The notes under the pieces were generated by a model. That model did no database searches. It saw only the letters and a list, made by a program, of their open reading frames with translations, and was not told where the DNA came from. The position numbers and the translations under genes are program-made. From the NCBI GenBank assembly GCA_041661005.1, contig JBAZVG010000001.1:735515-799514 (forward strand): DNA of 64,000 nucleotides. The letters run 5' to 3'. This DNA comes from Minisyncoccota bacterium (GTDB taxonomy: Bacteria > Patescibacteriota > Minisyncoccia > Phycocordibacterales > UBA9973). Shown piece after piece: positions 27,871 to 47,208 of the stretch (the stretch's first letter is position 1; each line of letters starts with the position of its first letter).

Positions 27871-28873
27871 ATGAAAACGATACTTGTAACAGGCGGAGCT
27901 GGGTATATCGGTAGTCATGCAGTAAAAAGACTTCTCAAAGAGGGATATATTGTGGTAGTTTTTGACAATTTTTCTCGTGGGTTTAGAGAACCGCTTGAAA
28001 TTCTGAAGAAATACGGTGAATTATATATAGTAGAGGGAGACCTTACAAAAAAAAGAAGACCTAAAAAAACTTTTCAAAAAGTATAGAATCGATGGCGTGA
28101 TGCATTTTGCGGCTTTGTGTTCCGTGGATGAATCAGTCAGAAAGCCCGAGCTTTATATAAAAAACAACGTGACAGGGACCTTGAATCTTCTTGAGGCTAT
28201 GGTTGAAGGAAAAGTGCAAAAAATAATTTTTTCTTCGACTTGCGCTGTTTATGGTGATGCGCAATATTTGCCGATTGATGAGAAACATCCTACTAAACCA
28301 TTGAATCCCTATGGACAATCTAAATTTGAAGCAGAAAAAGAAATAGAAAAATTTGGAAAGTTGCACGGTTTTAATTATGTTATTTTGCGATATTTCAATG
28401 TGTGTGGCGCAGATAGCGATGGAGAGATAGGGGACAGTAAAAAACCCTCAGAGCTTTTAGTGCAAAATGCCGTCCGTGGAGCACTAGGCATTGAATATTT
28501 TCGGCTCACGTGTGGAAAGGCGGATACTCCAGATGGAACACCTATACGGGATTATATTGATGTAGAAGACCTTGTGGATGCTCATATAAATGCGCTTTCA
28601 TATTTGAATAAAGGTAAACCATCGGGAATCTTCAATCTCGGTAATGGTAAGGGGTGGTCAGTCAAGGAAATTGTAAATGCAGTAAAAAAAGAGCTAGGGG
28701 TAGAATTTGTCGTAAAAAAAGGCAAAGAACGCAAAGGGGAATATGATAAAGTTTATGCAGATATAAAAAAAGCAAAATCTCTACTAGATTTTAATCCTAA
28801 AAAAACTTTAGCAGATAGTGTGAAAAGTTTAGTAAAATGGTATAATAATAAAAAAAATGGATACAAAAAATAA
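27871..28873 (+). pseudogene. galE: UDP-glucose 4-epimerase GalE interrupted by a +1 frameshift in an A8 homopolymer (27871-28086 plus 28097-28873)
   Basis: The N-terminal '[13 protein letters not shown]' Rossmann motif is in frame 1. The remainder ('GVMHFAALCSVDESV...YFNVCGA...') is in another frame. Removing one A from 'acaaaaaaaagaagac' near 28047-28056 restores a single ~320-aa GalE. Confidence 0.7.
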
Positions 28874-29834
28874 AAAAAGAGCGTTAGTGTGTGGTGCCGG
28901 TGGTTTTATCGGCAGTCACTTAGTCAAAAGATTAAAAAAAGAGGGATATTGGGTGCGTGGAGTTGATTTAAAAAATCCGGATTTTAGTCCGACCGAAGCT
29001 GACGAATTTGTTATTGGCGATTTGCGGGATCAGGCAGTATGTAGGAAAGTTCTTGATCAATCATTTGAAGAAGTATACCAATTGGCCGCTGATATGGGTG
29101 GCGCAGGATACATTTTTACCGGAGAACATGATGCAGATGTTATGCACAATTCGGCAACTATAAATTTAAACATTGTAGACCTAGCTCATAAAAATAAAGT
29201 TGGTAAAATATTCTATTCTTCATCTGCTTGTATATATCCAGCTTATAATCAAGAAGATCCGAACAATCCGAAATGTTCCGAAGATTCTGCATATCCAGCT
29301 GCACCAGATTCAGAATATGGTTGGGAAAAGCTTTTTAGCGAACGTCTTTATCTTAGTTATTTTCGTAACTATGGTTTACAAGTGCGAATAGCTCGATTTC
29401 ATAATATTTTTGGTCCCGAAGGGACATGGAAGGGCGGTAAAGAAAAGGCTCCCGCCGCTATTTGTCGAAAAATAGCTGAAGCAAAAGAAGAAGATGAAAT
29501 TGAGATTTGGGGTGATGGTGAACAAACCAGATCTTTTCTTTATATTGATGAGTGTGTTGAGGGCGTTAGACGTCTTATGGATTCTGATTTTACTGGTCCT
29601 GTAAACATTGGTTCTGATGAAATGGTTACAATTAATCAATTGGCTGAGGTGGCAATGAGTGTGGCAAACAAAAAACTTTCAATAAAACATATTTCAGGCC
29701 CACTCGGAGTTAGGGGCAGGAATTCTGATAATGCTCTTATTAAACAAAAGTTAAATTGGGCTCCCAATGCACCGCTTACCGAAGGGATAGAGAAAACTTA
29801 TACCTGGATTGAAAAGCAGGTTGCGAAAAAATAA
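28857..29834 (+). CDS. GDP-mannose 3,5-epimerase (GME-like SDR)
   Basis: It is near-colinear with plant/bacterial GME: 'LAADMGG.G.I', 'FYSSSACIYP', 'YG.EKL', 'RIARFHNI.GP.GTWKGG.EKAPAA.CRK', 'WGDG.QTRSF..IDECVEG', 'NIGSDEMV', 'RGRNSDN'. Confidence 0.8.
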   Translation: MDTKNKKRALVCGAGGFIGSHLVKRLKKEGYWVRGVDLKNPDFSPTEADEFVIGDLRDQAVCRKVLDQSFEEVYQLAADMGGAGYIFTGEHDADVMHNSATINLNIVDLAHKNKVGKIFYSSSACIYPAYNQEDPNNPKCSEDSAYPAAPDSEYGWEKLFSERLYLSYFRNYGLQVRIARFHNIFGPEGTWKGGKEKAPAAICRKIAEAKEEDEIEIWGDGEQTRSFLYIDECVEGVRRLMDSDFTGPVNIGSDEMVTINQLAEVAMSVANKKLSIKHISGPLGVRGRNSDNALIKQKLNWAPNAPLTEGIEKTYTWIEKQVAKK

Positions 29835-29939
29835 TTGTTTTTCATATTATTTTATGATATAAATAAGAAGCAATGAAAAAGGTTATAATCACCTCTGGAT
29901 TTTTTGGTTTTTAGCAAATGGCAAATAAGCTTAAAAAAT

Positions 29940-45865: not shown

Positions 45866-45930
45866 GCCTTTATGATACTTTTTTAAAGACGAAAAAACAA
45901 GTTGATATTTTTTATGTTTTTTGTGCTAGA

Positions 45931-47208
45931 ATGCCAAATATGAAATACGAAATTAAAGATATAAGCTTGGCAGACAGGGGGTTGATCAAAATTGAATGGG
46001 CGGGCAAAGATATGCCGGTGCTTGCTGGTATTAGGGATACTTTCAAGAAATCAAAACCATTTAAAAATCTCACCATTGGAGCTTGTTTGCATGTTACAGC
46101 AGAGACAGCTAATTTGATGATTGCCCTAAAAGAAGCTGGCGCGGAAGTTTCGCTTTGCGCTTCAAATCCTCTTTCCACCCAAGATGACGTGGCGGCGGCT
46201 TTGGTAAAAAAATTTAACATTTCTGTCTTCGCTAAAAAAGGCGAGAGCAAAGAAGAATATTTTTCACACCTAAAAGCGGTGCTCGATACAAACCCAGATA
46301 TGACTATGGATGATGGCGCTGATCTAGTCGGGGAGTTGCATTCTTTGCGTCTTGATCAAGCTAAAAAAATACTTGGCGGAACGGAGGAGACCACTACCGG
46401 TGTTACTCGGCTAAAATCAATGGCAAAAGAGGGGAAACTTCTTTTCCCGGTTATTGCAGTAAATGATTCTATGACCAAGCATTTCTTTGATAACCGTTAT
46501 GGCACTGGCCAATCTACACTAGACGGTATAATTCGCGCTACGAATAAATTGATCGCTGGCTCGGTGTTTGTCGTCGCGGGATATGGATGGTGTGGAAAGG
46601 GGCTGGCGATGCGCGCTCGCGGGATGGGAGCGAATGTCATAGTTACTGAGATTGACGCTGTCAAAGCGCTCGAAGCGTTGATGGATGGATTTCGGGTTAT
46701 GCCGATGGTGCAGGCAGCTCGTGAGGCTGATTTTATTTGCACTGTCACTGGGAACACCAGTGTCGTGGGATTGGATGCATTTAAGGTTATCAAAGACGGA
46801 TGTATAATTTCTAATTCCGGACATTTTGATGTGGAGATCGATCTTGTCGCGCTTCAGAAGATTACCAAGACTAGAAAAGTCTTACGCGATTTCGTTGAAA
46901 GCTACCAGATAAAAATCGGGAAAAATGAAAAGACCGTGTTTGTGTTGGCTGGCGGGAGATTAGTAAATTTGGGTAGCGCTGAAGGGCATCCAGCTTCGGT
47001 GATGGATATGAGTTTTGCCAATCAAATATTGTCAGCGGAATTTGTGTTAAAGAATAAGGGTAAACTCTCTAATTCAGTTCATACATTGCCCGAAATTCTT
47101 GATAGAAAAATTGCTATTTTGAAATTAAAAAGCTTGGGAGCAAAAATAGATACTTTATCAAAAAAACAAACAGAATATATGGCTGGTTGGAAGGAAGGCA
47201 CAAATTAA
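45931..47208 (+). CDS. ahcY: S-adenosyl-L-homocysteine hydrolase
   Basis: 'KDISLADRG...IEWA...MP.L', 'CLHVTAETANL' and an NAD-binding 'VVAGYGWCGKGLA' are present. Confidence 0.85.
   Translation: MPNMKYEIKDISLADRGLIKIEWAGKDMPVLAGIRDTFKKSKPFKNLTIGACLHVTAETANLMIALKEAGAEVSLCASNPLSTQDDVAAALVKKFNISVFAKKGESKEEYFSHLKAVLDTNPDMTMDDGADLVGELHSLRLDQAKKILGGTEETTTGVTRLKSMAKEGKLLFPVIAVNDSMTKHFFDNRYGTGQSTLDGIIRATNKLIAGSVFVVAGYGWCGKGLAMRARGMGANVIVTEIDAVKALEALMDGFRVMPMVQAAREADFICTVTGNTSVVGLDAFKVIKDGCIISNSGHFDVEIDLVALQKITKTRKVLRDFVESYQIKIGKNEKTVFVLAGGRLVNLGSAEGHPASVMDMSFANQILSAEFVLKNKGKLSNSVHTLPEILDRKIAILKLKSLGAKIDTLSKKQTEYMAGWKEGTN

What the first reader, a model, noticed from the sequence alone, without database searches (positions are those of the whole stretch)
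27871..47208. About 18-kb glycan island with two O-antigen-ligase-like proteins and a Wzy-like/GT26 fusion, directly coupled to SAM-cycle genes
The island holds a PG-binding surface protein, an O-antigen-ligase-like protein with a TPR tail, galE, a GDP-mannose 3,5-epimerase, the tailored-sugar operon, a flippase, GT2, GT4 and a single 736-aa protein. That protein joins a Wzy/WaaL-type polytopic domain to a WecB/TagA (GT26) transferase, followed convergently by the priming sugar phosphotransferase. ahcY sits immediately downstream of the priming phosphotransferase gene on the opposite strand (divergent), and metK follows 1.6 kb downstream of ahcY, behind a riboswitch. SAM-recycling genes placed next to a locus with two SAM-dependent sugar methyltransferases suggest co-selection. 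The Wzy-GT26 fusion is an uncommon architecture; it could couple sugar transfer to polymerisation or ligation.
Basis: partly seen in the sequence, partly recalled or inferred. Interest (0 to 1): 0.6.

Follow-up and report, generated by a model that had tools for sequence, protein, structure and literature searches.

The report
Variable surface-sugar island with fused enzyme
This is an 18-kb swappable gene cassette for a decorated cell-surface sugar chain in an ultra-small (CPR/Paceibacterota) bacterium; its two-in-one membrane enzyme is a real, recurring design whose outer half has lost a key catalytic residue here, and its closeness to the SAM-recycling genes looks like chromosome position rather than shown function.

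Summary
Window 27871-45865 is one + strand Wzx/Wzy-type glycan operon plus a convergent priming transferase. ORF 42344-44554 is a single 736-aa protein: a 12-helix Wzy_C/WaaL-fold domain followed by a cytoplasmic GT26 (TagA-fold) transferase.

The fusion is real. An independent assembly is 100% identical, and about 33 homologue clusters carry it (37-54% identity), mostly Cand. Staskawiczbacteria. In other phyla the same two families are either fused or separate neighbours, often with a GDP-mannose 3,5-epimerase and sometimes the GT4. wzyE-wecG in the enterobacterial common antigen locus is the closest known unfused pair.

Two corrections:
- In this lineage only, the histidine essential in WaaL/PglL is Gln (family HxHN, here NAQN). 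15 of 69 near-invariant outer-domain positions are changed, yet every known GT26 catalytic residue is kept. The outer domain is probably inactive or remodelled.
- ahcY-AAA_28-riboswitch-metK is a housekeeping block. It flanks unrelated glycan cassettes in three near relatives and no glycan genes in a fourth. It is absent from all 85 loci fetched around fusion/GT26 homologues.

The upstream PG-binding and Wzy_C-TPR genes are conserved core, not island. Co-selection with the methyltransferases is not supported. Moderate interest.

The parts
23507..25561 (+). PG_binding_1 surface protein (684 aa). It is part of the conserved left flank, not the variable island.
   Evidence: Pfam PF01471 at 39.1 bits. 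A homologue with 40% identity sits at the same position, FtsK-X-PGbind-Wzy_C-TPR, in L092.
25756..27870 (+). Wzy_C/WaaL-fold protein with a TPR tail (704 aa). It is a conserved core gene and the candidate glycan ligase.
   Evidence: Pfam Wzy_C at 50.5 bits. More than 150 homologue clusters in Paceibacterota/Nomurabacteria. AF2 model pLDDT 82.6; Foldseek top hit WaaL 7tpg_B with TMt 0.63. R225 and H362 are invariant. 13 helices and a K/R-rich loop at 444-462 place the TPR tail outside the cell (inference).
27871..28873 (+). galE-like UDP-hexose 4-epimerase, split by a +1 frameshift in the A8 run at 28047-28054.
   Evidence: Sequence read. Pfam Epimerase matches the C-terminal part only. The gene is also split (71 + 257 aa) in the Logan contig.
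28857..29834 (+). [quoted passage not shown]
   Evidence: phmmer E 4e-103 to Arabidopsis GME 2C59. Homologues of 49-73% identity lie within 5 kb of 17 of the 80 GT26 loci.
29940..34431 (+). Nucleotide-sugar tailoring genes: glucose-1-P cytidylyltransferase-like, 4,6-dehydratase, 3-C-methyltransferase (31617-32834), 3,5-epimerase and an SDR reductase. Together they predict a C-methylated 6-deoxyhexose.
   Evidence: NCBIfam TIGR02623 at 271 bits (just under its 300 cut-off), TIGR02622 at 196 bits (under its 278 cut-off), rmlC at 193 bits (over its cut-off). PDB 4RV9 and TcaB9 match at E 1e-80 to 1e-66. Pfam.
34438..36634 (+). O-carbamoyltransferase (NodU/CmcH type) and a hexapeptide acyltransferase.
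   Evidence: Pfam Carbam_trans_N/C and Hexapep.
36615..38153 (+). Wzx-type flippase.
   Evidence: Pfam Polysacc_synt and Polysacc_synt_3.
38150..42347 (+). GT2 transferase, GalE-like epimerase, TylF-type O-methyltransferase (40237-41079) and GT4 transferase (41076-42347).
   Evidence: Pfam. GT4 homologues of 58-67% identity sit directly upstream of the fusion in Staskawiczbacteria loci.
42344..43798 (+). Fusion protein, residues 1-485: a 12-helix Wzy_C/WaaL-fold domain. The family signature QHAHN is here RNAQN (codons 43484-43492).
   Evidence: Pfam. Family profile against WaaL 7TPG gives E 4.8e-6 and aligns WaaL H313 to Q383. Foldseek to 7tpg_B gives E 9e-5. 15 of 69 near-invariant columns are changed. 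The second His is present in all the other members where the motif was located (about 68). Topology.
43808..44554 (+). Fusion protein, residues 489-736: a cytoplasmic GT26 (WecG/TagA/CpsF, GT-E fold) transferase with its C-terminal tail.
   Evidence: Pfam at 207.6 bits. phmmer to TagA 7MPK at E 4.5e-37. Foldseek TMt 0.93. D553, Q658, E701, R705, R712 and R716 correspond to TagA D65, Q167, E210, R214, R221 and R224 (PMC8784642).
44555..45865 (-). Priming polyprenyl-phosphate sugar-phosphate transferase (Bac_transf, 436 aa).
   Evidence: Pfam at 222.6 bits. It is 68.6% identical to the Bac_transf gene that lies downstream of metK in L087/L088.
45931..47208 (+). ahcY (S-adenosylhomocysteine hydrolase). 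It begins the conserved right-flank block.
   Evidence: Pfam. 100% identical to P0206 and 83-86% identical to Nomurabacteria AhcY.
47333..47848 (+). AAA_28 NTPase, always found between ahcY and metK in the relatives examined.
   Evidence: Pfam. Synteny in L087-L090.
47883..48417 (+). RelB-like antitoxin plus YafQ-family toxin, an insertion specific to this genome.
   Evidence: Pfam YafQ_toxin at 34.1 bits (gathering score 30); RelB at 21.1 bits (weak). Absent from L087-L090.
48497..48682 (+). SAM-I riboswitch aptamer (48497-48642) plus a terminator-like hairpin (48664-48682).
   Evidence: Rfam RF00162 at 32.1 bits, E 5.5e-5, below the gathering score. Orthologous hits of 43.7-44.4 bits in L087-L089. 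Hairpin plus T-run.
48847..49911 (+). metK (SAM synthetase).
   Evidence: 84.6-88.2% identical to the MetK genes of L087-L090, which carry the S-AdoMet_synt domains.

Best explanation
The region is a hypervariable Wzx/Wzy-type surface-glycan cassette (27871-45865). It sits in a fixed chromosomal slot of a Paceibacterota (Nomurabacteria-like) genome. The left flank is conserved core: FtsK, an unnamed ORF, a PG-binding protein and Wzy_C-TPR. The right flank is the housekeeping block ahcY-AAA_28-SAM riboswitch-metK.

Proposed pathway (inferred from family functions):
1. The Bac_transf enzyme primes the polyprenyl phosphate carrier.
2. The cytoplasmic GT26 domain of the 736-aa fusion adds the second sugar.
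3. GT4 and GT2 add further sugars. These probably include L-galactose or L-gulose (from the GDP-mannose 3,5-epimerase) and a C-methyl, O-methyl, carbamoylated or acetylated 6-deoxyhexose.
4. Wzx flips the completed unit.
5. Wzy_C-type proteins act on it outside the membrane.

At family level the fusion is a cassette-specific Wzy-type polymerase joined to the GT26. This is the fused form of gene pairs such as wzyE-wecG. The two sites face opposite sides of the membrane, so the fusion gives tethering and co-assembly rather than substrate channelling.

In this lineage the outer-face active site has been remodelled and lacks the essential His. The outer domain is therefore most likely catalytically dead and kept as a membrane anchor for a still-needed GT26. 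The conserved Wzy_C-TPR protein, with its catalytic set intact, would then transfer the unit to its final acceptor.

The SAM-cycle genes are neighbours by position.

Shown: domain identities, folds, residue changes and synteny. Inferred: sugar identities, the polymerase/ligase role split, inactivity of the outer domain, and the topology.
For: - Domains and folds.
- Topology: 12 TM helices, N-in and C-in by the positive-inside rule. Short cytoplasmic loops carry 1-5 K+R each, and 5 follow TM12; short outer loops carry 0-2.
- The fusion recurs: 33 full-length clusters; at least 8 full-length clusters in the 50%-identity library; four Staskawiczbacteria species, and continuous full-length matches in Deltaproteobacteria/Binatota contigs (L028, L044, L049; reading frames not checked). 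The same two families are separate neighbours in WOR-3, Chloroflexota and other phyla.
- wzyE-wecG are adjacent and translationally coupled in Shigella (PMC9804384).
- GT26 catalytic residues are all kept (PMC8784642).
- WaaL H313 (E. coli H338, PglL H349; PMC3643930) aligns to Q383. The second His is present in every other family member where the motif was located. 20 of 140 near-invariant positions are changed, against 1-14 in the other 22 members; 15 of the 20 are in the outer domain.
- The same changes occur in a strain with 95.6% nucleotide identity, where the first ~208 codons are replaced by unrelated sequence but the GT26 part stays open.
- The Wzy_C-TPR family keeps R225 and H362 and is conserved next to unrelated cassettes, including an ABC-transporter-type one that needs no Wzy.
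- The ahcY-AAA_28-metK block is conserved with or without adjacent glycan genes.
- GC drops to 0.29-0.33 inside the island, against 0.36-0.40 in the flanks.
Against: - No experiment exists for any member of this family.
- Wzy polymerases are diverse and not all rely on a His, so a Gln/Asn site could still work or could serve a different chemistry.
- dN/dS of 0.42 against the related strain rests on about 49 substitutions. It does not separate the two domains (0.47 against 0.38).
- The truncated copy in L005 could be an assembly chimera.
- Both flanks of the slot were never seen on one relative's contig, because fetched loci are limited to 10 kb on each side.
- Topology comes from hydropathy and AF2 helices, not from a dedicated predictor or reporter fusions.
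- The Foldseek TM-score of the outer domain to WaaL is only 0.45.
- The polymerase/ligase split rests on analogy with O-antigen genetics.
Confidence: 0.6

Rival explanations
1. ahcY and metK are kept next to the island because its two SAM-dependent sugar methyltransferases need local SAM regeneration, and the fusion mechanistically couples sugar transfer to polymerisation or ligation.
For: In three near relatives the ahcY-AAA_28-metK block lies next to, or inside, a glycan locus: between the Wzx/GT genes and the priming Bac_transf. One of those cassettes carries a Methyltransf_21 gene. Some fusion homologues carry a third, weak FkbM-like methyltransferase domain.
Against: - The neighbouring cassettes are unrelated in content. 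One shows no methyltransferase within 10 kb.
- A fourth relative has the block with no glycan genes.
- 0 of 85 loci around fusion/GT26 homologues have ahcY or metK within 10 kb.
- 35 of 45 distant ahcY loci pair with metK, but only 1 has Bac_transf.
- metK has its own SAM riboswitch and terminator, so it is regulated by the cell's SAM level rather than by the operon.
- The fusion's two sites are on opposite membrane faces.
Confidence: 0.12
2. The outer domain of the fusion is still an active enzyme whose active site has been remodelled (neofunctionalised). It might, for example, polymerise or transfer the unusual C-methyl/carbamoyl sugar unit by a His-independent mechanism.
For: - The ORF is intact and 100% identical in a second assembly.
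- dN/dS is below 1.
- The changes cluster in the outer-face loops rather than being scattered (H381N, H383Q, R447N, T450S, E451D, A455V, A459P, D460G). That pattern is also what a specificity shift would give.
- The positions aligned to WaaL R191 and R265 keep a positive charge (K242, R349).
Against: - The His is essential in WaaL and PglL (PMC3643930) and is present in every other member of this family where the motif was located.
- A related strain appears to have lost the first ~208 codons.
- A second, intact Wzy_C protein is encoded nearby.
Confidence: 0.25
3. The roles are the reverse of those proposed. The fusion's Wzy_C domain is a WaaL/PglL-type ligase or protein O-oligosaccharyltransferase, and the Wzy_C-TPR protein is the polymerase.
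For: The only solved structure matched by the fusion's outer domain, in sequence or fold, is a ligase (WaaL 7TPG). Loci of fusion relatives show no second Wzy_C gene within 10 kb and carry a PG_binding_1 protein just downstream, a possible acceptor.
Against: - Wzy_C-TPR is conserved next to cassettes of unrelated structure, including an ABC-transporter-type one. A donor-tolerant ligase would behave this way; a repeat-unit-specific polymerase would not.
- Wzy_C-TPR matches WaaL better (TMt 0.63 against 0.45).
- Its TPR tail is predicted to lie outside the cell, suitable for binding an acceptor.
Confidence: 0.15

Closest known systems
WzyE-WecG of the enterobacterial common antigen locus
   Same: A Wzy-type polymerase gene lies directly upstream of, and is translationally coupled to, a GT26 (GT-E) transferase that adds the second sugar to the lipid carrier. 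This is the same order as the two domains of the fusion. Deleting wzyE weakens WecG's hold on the membrane (PMC9804384).
   Different: They are two separate proteins, and no cross-link between them was detected (PMC9804384). From my own knowledge, WzyE belongs to a Pfam family other than Wzy_C. The donor there is UDP-ManNAcA; TagA's ManNAc-contacting N39 is not conserved in this family.
WaaL O-antigen ligase (C. metallidurans, PDB 7TPG) and PglL O-oligosaccharyltransferases
   Same: The Wzy_C signature, 12 TM helices with a large outer loop after TM9, and conserved basic residues. The family profile matches 7TPG at E 4.8e-6 and Foldseek gives E 9e-5.
   Different: The essential His (H313 / H338 / H349) is Gln in the window protein (PMC3643930). 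This protein also carries a C-terminal cytoplasmic glycosyltransferase. The organism has no known outer membrane or lipid A (my own knowledge of CPR bacteria).
TagA/TarA wall-teichoic-acid ManNAc transferase (PDB 5WB4, 7MPK)
   Same: GT-E fold with TMt 0.93. The catalytic Asp and the three arginines of the C-terminal tail are conserved (PMC8784642).
   Different: TagA is a peripheral membrane protein held on by its tail. Here the domain is covalently tethered to a polytopic domain through a linker of about 15 residues. NCBIfam TarA scores 114.9 bits against a 350 cut-off, so this is not a TagA equivalog.
O-antigen and capsule loci held between conserved flanking genes (E. coli galF-gnd, pneumococcal dexB-aliA; my own knowledge)
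   Same: A low-GC cassette of variable content for nucleotide-sugar synthesis, GTs, Wzx and Wzy sits at a fixed chromosomal site. The donor-tolerant ligase is encoded outside the cassette.
   Different: The flanks here are FtsK...Wzy_C-TPR on one side and ahcY-AAA_28-metK on the other. The priming transferase lies on different sides of the ahcY-metK block in different strains.

Membership tests
Wzy_C / O-antigen ligase superfamily (PF04932) | Profile match above the curated threshold | tested here: met
   49.8 bits against a gathering score of 31.7, residues 229-401.
Wzy_C / O-antigen ligase superfamily (PF04932) | Polytopic fold like WaaL: about 12 TM helices with a large extracytoplasmic loop carrying the conserved motifs | tested here: met
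   AF2 model with pLDDT 77.6. Foldseek to 7tpg_B gives E 9e-5 and probability 1.0, but TMt is only 0.45. 12 hydrophobic helices obey the positive-inside rule.
Wzy_C / O-antigen ligase superfamily (PF04932) | Catalytic set: two basic residues plus the essential His (EcWaaL R215, R288, H338; PglL R224, R298, H349) | tested here: not met
   The positions aligned to CmWaaL R191 and R265 are K242 and R349. H313 aligns to Q383, and the neighbouring H311 aligns to N381. The His is present in all the other family members where the motif was located. Residue roles are from PMC3643930.
GT26 WecG/TagA/CpsF glycosyltransferases (PF03808, GT-E fold) | Profile match and fold | tested here: met
   207.6 bits. 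TIGR00696 at 158.8 bits against a cut-off of 69. Foldseek to TagA gives TMt 0.93, rmsd 1.7.
GT26 WecG/TagA/CpsF glycosyltransferases (PF03808, GT-E fold) | Catalytic Asp (TagA D65) and the C-terminal-tail residues E210, R214, R221 and R224 | tested here: met
   D553, E701, R705, R712 and R716 align to them. Residue roles are from PMC8784642.
TagA/TarA equivalog (UDP-ManNAc:GlcNAc-PP-Und transferase) | ManNAc-recognising N39 and an equivalog-level score | tested here: not met
   N39 aligns to D527 (the family consensus there is Gly). NF041710 scores 114.9 bits against a 350 cut-off.
Wzx/Wzy-dependent glycan assembly locus | Priming phosphoglycosyl transferase, glycosyltransferases, a Wzx flippase and a Wzy-type protein in one cluster | tested here: met
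   Bac_transf, GT2, GT4, GT26, Polysacc_synt and Wzy_C.
Wzx/Wzy-dependent glycan assembly locus | Chain-length regulator (Wzz/PCP) or an LCP-type wall ligase | tested here: not met
   No such Pfam family was found among the 20 ORFs scanned between 23507 and 47848. The rest of the genome was not available.
SAM-I riboswitch (RF00162) | Covariance-model score at or above the gathering threshold | tested here: inconclusive
   The window scores 32.1 bits against 44.4, with a 55-nt insertion. Orthologous sites upstream of metK score 44.4, 44.4 and 43.7 bits. A terminator-like hairpin follows the aptamer.
Functionally co-selected SAM-cycle/methyltransferase gene neighbourhood | Adjacency that tracks the methyltransferase-bearing cassette across relatives | tested here: not met
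   0 of 85 loci around fusion/GT26 homologues have ahcY or metK. Near relatives have the block next to unrelated cassettes or next to none. The ahcY-metK pairing is general: 35 of 45 loci.

The most novel reading that the evidence does not exclude
The Wzy_C-like domain, the GT26 domain and a GDP-mannose 3,5-epimerase, sometimes with the GT4, form a conserved module. It is spread across at least eight phyla: CPR, Chloroflexota, WOR-3, Binatota/Deltaproteobacteria, Planctomycetota, Thermoanaerobaculia and Gammaproteobacteria. It would build an undescribed L-galactose- or L-gulose-containing surface glycan. Its natural fusions would then be direct evidence that cytoplasmic transferases and the outer-face polymerase work as one physical assembly. 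In this genome the polymerase half would have become a pseudo-enzyme scaffold kept only to anchor the transferase.
Probability: 0.3. Interest if true: 0.6.

Novelty: new variant of a known kind. Interest (0 to 1): 0.4.

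Why it matters
Whether the Wzx/Wzy pathway enzymes form a physical complex is a long-discussed question; the idea is cited in PMC9804384 and reviewed in PMC12004945. A natural, recurrent fusion of a Wzy-type domain with the second-step GT26 transferase gives genomic support for such an association. 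So does finding the same two families as unfused neighbours in other phyla. It also offers a single-polypeptide target for structural work.

The frequent link to a GDP-mannose 3,5-epimerase suggests a biological role for bacterial GME enzymes, whose function is still unclear (PMC6678494).

For CPR bacteria, the locus shows that surface-glycan cassettes are swapped at a fixed chromosomal site, with a conserved WaaL-like/TPR protein beside a wall-binding surface protein. That is relevant to how these episymbionts vary their surface.

The SAM-cycle adjacency is a caution against reading function into neighbourhood alone.

Tried and rejected
- Rfam at gathering threshold found no riboswitch. The permissive search and the orthologous loci were needed.
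- phmmer of the whole fusion against PDB found only TagA. A family profile was needed to reach WaaL.
- phmmer of Wzy_C-TPR against PDB found only TPR proteins. Profile-profile comparison and fold search were needed.
- NCBIfam did not name the GDP-mannose 3,5-epimerase; its best hit was GDP-fucose synthase, far below cut-off. PDB sequence search did name it.
- My first conclusion, that the ahcY/metK adjacency is simply not conserved, came from fusion-centred loci. I revised it after ahcY-centred look-ups.
- The metagenome scan with AhcY returned only distant relatives (57-72% identity). It served only as a background rate.
- dN/dS against the one close strain (0.42) is too imprecise to show relaxed selection or a difference between the domains.
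- Literature searches for a described Wzy-GT26 fusion found none in the held library. This does not prove that no description exists.
- I rejected an assembly or frameshift artefact as the origin of the fusion. A second assembly has the identical ORF, and 33 clusters share the architecture.

Full report
**What is there.**
The window has low GC (0.29-0.46). From 27871 to 44554, sixteen + strand genes follow one another with overlaps or gaps of about 100 bp or less. Pfam, NCBIfam and PDB sequence searches identify them as follows:
- a galE-like epimerase;
- a GDP-mannose 3,5-epimerase (E 4e-103 to Arabidopsis GME);
- a glucose-1-P cytidylyltransferase-like enzyme, a 4,6-dehydratase, a sugar 3-C-methyltransferase (E 8e-80 to 4RV9), a 3,5-epimerase and an SDR reductase;
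- a NodU-type carbamoyltransferase and a hexapeptide acyltransferase;
- a Wzx flippase, a GT2, another epimerase, a TylF-type O-methyltransferase and a GT4;
- a 736-aa protein carrying Wzy_C (49.8 bits; gathering score 31.7) and Glyco_tran_WecG (207.6 bits).

A Bac_transf priming transferase is convergent with the operon (44555-45865). ahcY starts 65 bp beyond it, on the other strand.

Three details differ:
- The PG-binding protein and the Wzy_C-TPR protein lie upstream of the stated start.
- galE is broken by a +1 frameshift in an A8 run.
- An AAA_28 NTPase and a YafQ/RelB-like toxin-antitoxin pair separate ahcY from metK.

The riboswitch claim holds. There is a SAM-I aptamer match below threshold (32.1 bits), followed by a terminator-like hairpin. 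The same element scores 43.7-44.4 bits upstream of metK in three relatives.

**The fusion is real and recurrent.**
A Logan assembly of a public run is 100% identical to the window over 35931-47247, and its gene calls extend the same contig back to about 25688. A search of 5.8 billion proteins gave 33 full-length clusters with both domains (37-54% identity). Most are named Candidatus Staskawiczbacteria, and NCBI annotates them only as 'WecB/TagA/CpsF family glycosyltransferase'. The exhaustive 50%-identity library holds about eight full-length clusters.

Among species-representative genomes, four Staskawiczbacteria species carry the fusion. Deltaproteobacteria/Binatota contigs (L028, L044, L049) show continuous full-length matches. 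In WOR-3, Chloroflexota, Planctomycetota, Thermoanaerobaculia and Gammaproteobacteria the same Wzy-like and GT26 families are separate genes within a few kb.

Of the 80 GT26 loci, 17 also have a GDP-mannose 3,5-epimerase homologue (49-73% identity) within 5 kb. Sixteen of those 17 are among the 44 loci with the most similar GT26. GT4 homologues of 58-67% identity sit directly upstream of the fusion in Staskawiczbacteria.

GT26 is a frequent fusion partner in general. It is found joined to GT4, to GT4 plus a methyltransferase, to a WecA-type transferase, to a second GT26, and in a roughly 1000-aa form with a weak FkbM-like third domain.

The closest described case is unfused. wzyE and wecG are adjacent and translationally coupled in the enterobacterial common antigen locus, in the same order as the domains here (PMC9804384). 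I found no paper describing the fusion in the held library.

**Anatomy of the fusion.**
The AF2 model (pLDDT 77.6) has a helical bundle followed by an alpha/beta domain. Foldseek matches the C-terminal domain to TagA (TMt 0.93) and the N-terminal domain to the WaaL ligase 7TPG (E 9e-5, TMt 0.45).

Hydropathy and the AF2 helices give 12 TM segments. Short loops on the proposed cytoplasmic side carry 1-5 Lys+Arg each, and five follow TM12. Short outer loops carry 0-2.

So both termini are inside and the GT26 domain is cytoplasmic, joined by a linker of about 15 residues. The conserved motifs of the Wzy_C domain face outward. The two catalytic sites therefore work on opposite faces of the membrane, several pathway steps apart. 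The fusion can provide tethering, 1:1 stoichiometry and co-assembly, but not direct hand-over of substrate. This topology is inferred, not measured.

**Active sites.**
The alignment to TagA shows that D65, Q167, E210, R214, R221 and R224 correspond to D553, Q658, E701, R705, R712 and R716. PMC8784642 reports D65 and the three arginines as needed for catalysis, Q167 as a contact to the ManNAc N-acetyl group, and E210 as a conserved residue lining the proposed lipid entry pore. The other ManNAc contact, N39, is not kept, and the TarA equivalog model scores far below its cut-off. The domain therefore looks active, with an unknown donor.

For the outer domain, a profile of stand-alone relatives matches C. 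metallidurans WaaL (E 4.8e-6). It aligns WaaL R191, R265 and H313 to K242, R349 and Q383. The corresponding residues in E. coli WaaL (R215, R288, H338) and in PglL (R224, R298, H349) are important for function (PMC3643930).

The family signature is QHAHN; the window has RNAQN. The second His is present in all the other members where the motif could be located (about 68 of 71 searched, fused or not). The only other exception is the 94%-identical fragment P0001, from another sample.

At columns that are near-invariant in the other 22 fusions, the window protein differs at 20 of 140. The other members differ at 1-14. Fifteen of the window's changes fall among 69 outer-domain columns and five among 71 GT26 columns. 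Most of them lie in the outer loops.

Overall divergence is unremarkable. dN/dS against the related strain is 0.42, based on few substitutions. In that strain, homology begins only at window 42967. The first ~208 codons are replaced by unrelated sequence, while an ORF covering TM8-12 plus GT26 stays open. This could also be a chimeric contig.

My reading is that the outer domain is inactive or remodelled in this lineage, and that the transferase is still under selection.

**The second Wzy_C protein.**
The 704-aa Wzy_C-TPR protein is 100% identical to an NCBI protein of a 'Candidatus Paceibacterota bacterium' that lies on an 813-kb contig. It has more than 150 homologue clusters in Nomurabacteria/Paceibacterota. 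Its AF2 model (pLDDT 82.6) matches WaaL best (TMt 0.63). R225 and H362 are invariant in its family, and H362 aligns to the position that is Gln in the fusion. Thirteen helices and a Lys/Arg-rich loop before the last one place the TPR tail outside the cell (inference).

In two further lineages (three contigs) the order FtsK, unnamed ORF, large surface protein, Wzy_C-TPR is conserved; the surface protein carries PG_binding_1 in L092/L093 only. It is followed by unrelated content. One locus has defence or mobile genes and a different Wzx/Wzy cassette with its own Wzy_C gene. Another has an ABC-transporter-type pathway with a giant multi-GT protein.

A Wzy_C protein that stays put while the cassettes change, including next to a cassette that needs no polymerase, behaves like a donor-tolerant ligase. 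The cassette-borne one behaves like a repeat-unit-specific polymerase. This is an analogy with O-antigen genetics, not a demonstration.

**The SAM-cycle neighbours.**
AhcY is 83-86% identical to Nomurabacteria proteins.
- In relatives L087/L088 and L089, the block ahcY-AAA_28-(riboswitch)-metK is preserved. It lies between a Wzx/GT cassette of unrelated content and a Bac_transf gene. That Bac_transf is 68.6% identical to the window's in one lineage and only 32% identical in the other.
- In L090 the block has no glycan neighbours.
- No ahcY or metK lies within 10 kb of any of the 85 loci fetched around fusion/GT26 homologues.
- Among distant ahcY loci, 35 of 45 have metK within 6 kb, but only one has a Bac_transf gene.

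So ahcY-metK is an old pair of its own. In this clade it marks one edge of a variable glycan slot. The adjacency does not track the methyltransferase-bearing cassette. metK also carries its own SAM-sensing leader. Co-selection for local SAM supply is therefore not supported, though it is not strictly excluded.

**Verdict.**
The island is an ordinary kind of locus (a Wzx/Wzy cassette in a conserved slot). It contains an uncharacterised but recurrent variant architecture (Wzy_C-GT26). In this genome the outer catalytic site of that protein has lost its signature histidine.

The most useful leads are the GT26/Wzy_C/GDP-mannose-epimerase module seen across phyla, and the fusion as evidence that inner-face and outer-face enzymes of the pathway associate physically.

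Noticed in passing
window 27871-28873 (A8 run at 28047-28054): galE is split into 71-aa and 257/258-aa ORFs by a +1 frameshift in a homopolymer. The same split appears in the independent Logan contig. It could be a real pseudogene, a phase-variable site or a shared homopolymer error.
   Followed up: partly
window 47883-48417: A RelB-like antitoxin plus a YafQ-family toxin is inserted between the AAA_28 gene and the SAM riboswitch. It is absent at this place in four relatives (L087-L090).
   Followed up: partly
window 51970-56770: The 23S rRNA (51970-54824) and the 5S rRNA (56663-56770) are 1.8 kb apart, with a 159-aa ORF (55516-55995) between them. There is no 16S rRNA and no tRNA anywhere in the 64-kb window.
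   Followed up: no
window ~25688 and 47247 (ends of Logan contig SRR18595301_86304): The independent 21.5-kb assembly breaks almost exactly at the two island borders. This would happen if co-occurring strains share the flanks but differ in the cassette.
   Followed up: no
L005 1-1966 (ENA ERZ27254767 contig) against window 42344-42966: In a strain with 95.6% nucleotide identity, the first ~208 codons of the fusion gene are replaced by unrelated DNA. That DNA carries a PhdYeFM antitoxin gene and an unknown gene on the opposite strand. A 500-aa ORF remains (TM8-12 plus GT26).
   Followed up: partly
L006-L049 (genome-contig loci); window 28857-29834: A GDP-mannose 3,5-epimerase homologue (49-73% identity) lies within 5 kb, usually within 500 bp, of the GT26 gene in 17 of 80 loci from many phyla. 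It often occurs together with the same Wzy-like family. Bacterial roles of this epimerase are still unclear (PMC6678494).
   Followed up: partly
proteins P0078, P0080, P0100, P0107, P0110, P0111, P0174, P0200, P0205, P0006, P0022: The GT26 domain occurs in many other fusions: GT4-GT26, GT4-methyltransferase-GT26, WecA-type (PF00953)-GT26, tandem GT26, and Wzy_C-GT26 with a weak FkbM-like methyltransferase third domain.
   Followed up: partly
window 23507-27870; L092-L094: A large surface protein (PG_binding_1 in the window and in L092/L093, no Pfam hit in L094) and the Wzy_C-TPR gene form a conserved adjacent pair downstream of FtsK in the window and two further lineages. This raises the possibility that the surface protein is the acceptor of the glycan.
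   Followed up: partly
window 29940-41079: The tailoring genes are a cytidylyltransferase, a 4,6-dehydratase, a 3-C-methyltransferase, a 3,5-epimerase, a reductase, an O-methyltransferase, a carbamoyltransferase and an acetyltransferase. Together they predict a heavily decorated branched-chain 6-deoxyhexose. GC falls to 0.29-0.31 here.
   Followed up: no
window 44555-45865 against L087 13445-14755 and L088 4050-5360: The priming Bac_transf gene (68.6% identical) lies downstream of metK in the nearest relatives but upstream of ahcY in the window. A rearrangement has therefore moved it across the ahcY-metK block.
   Followed up: partly
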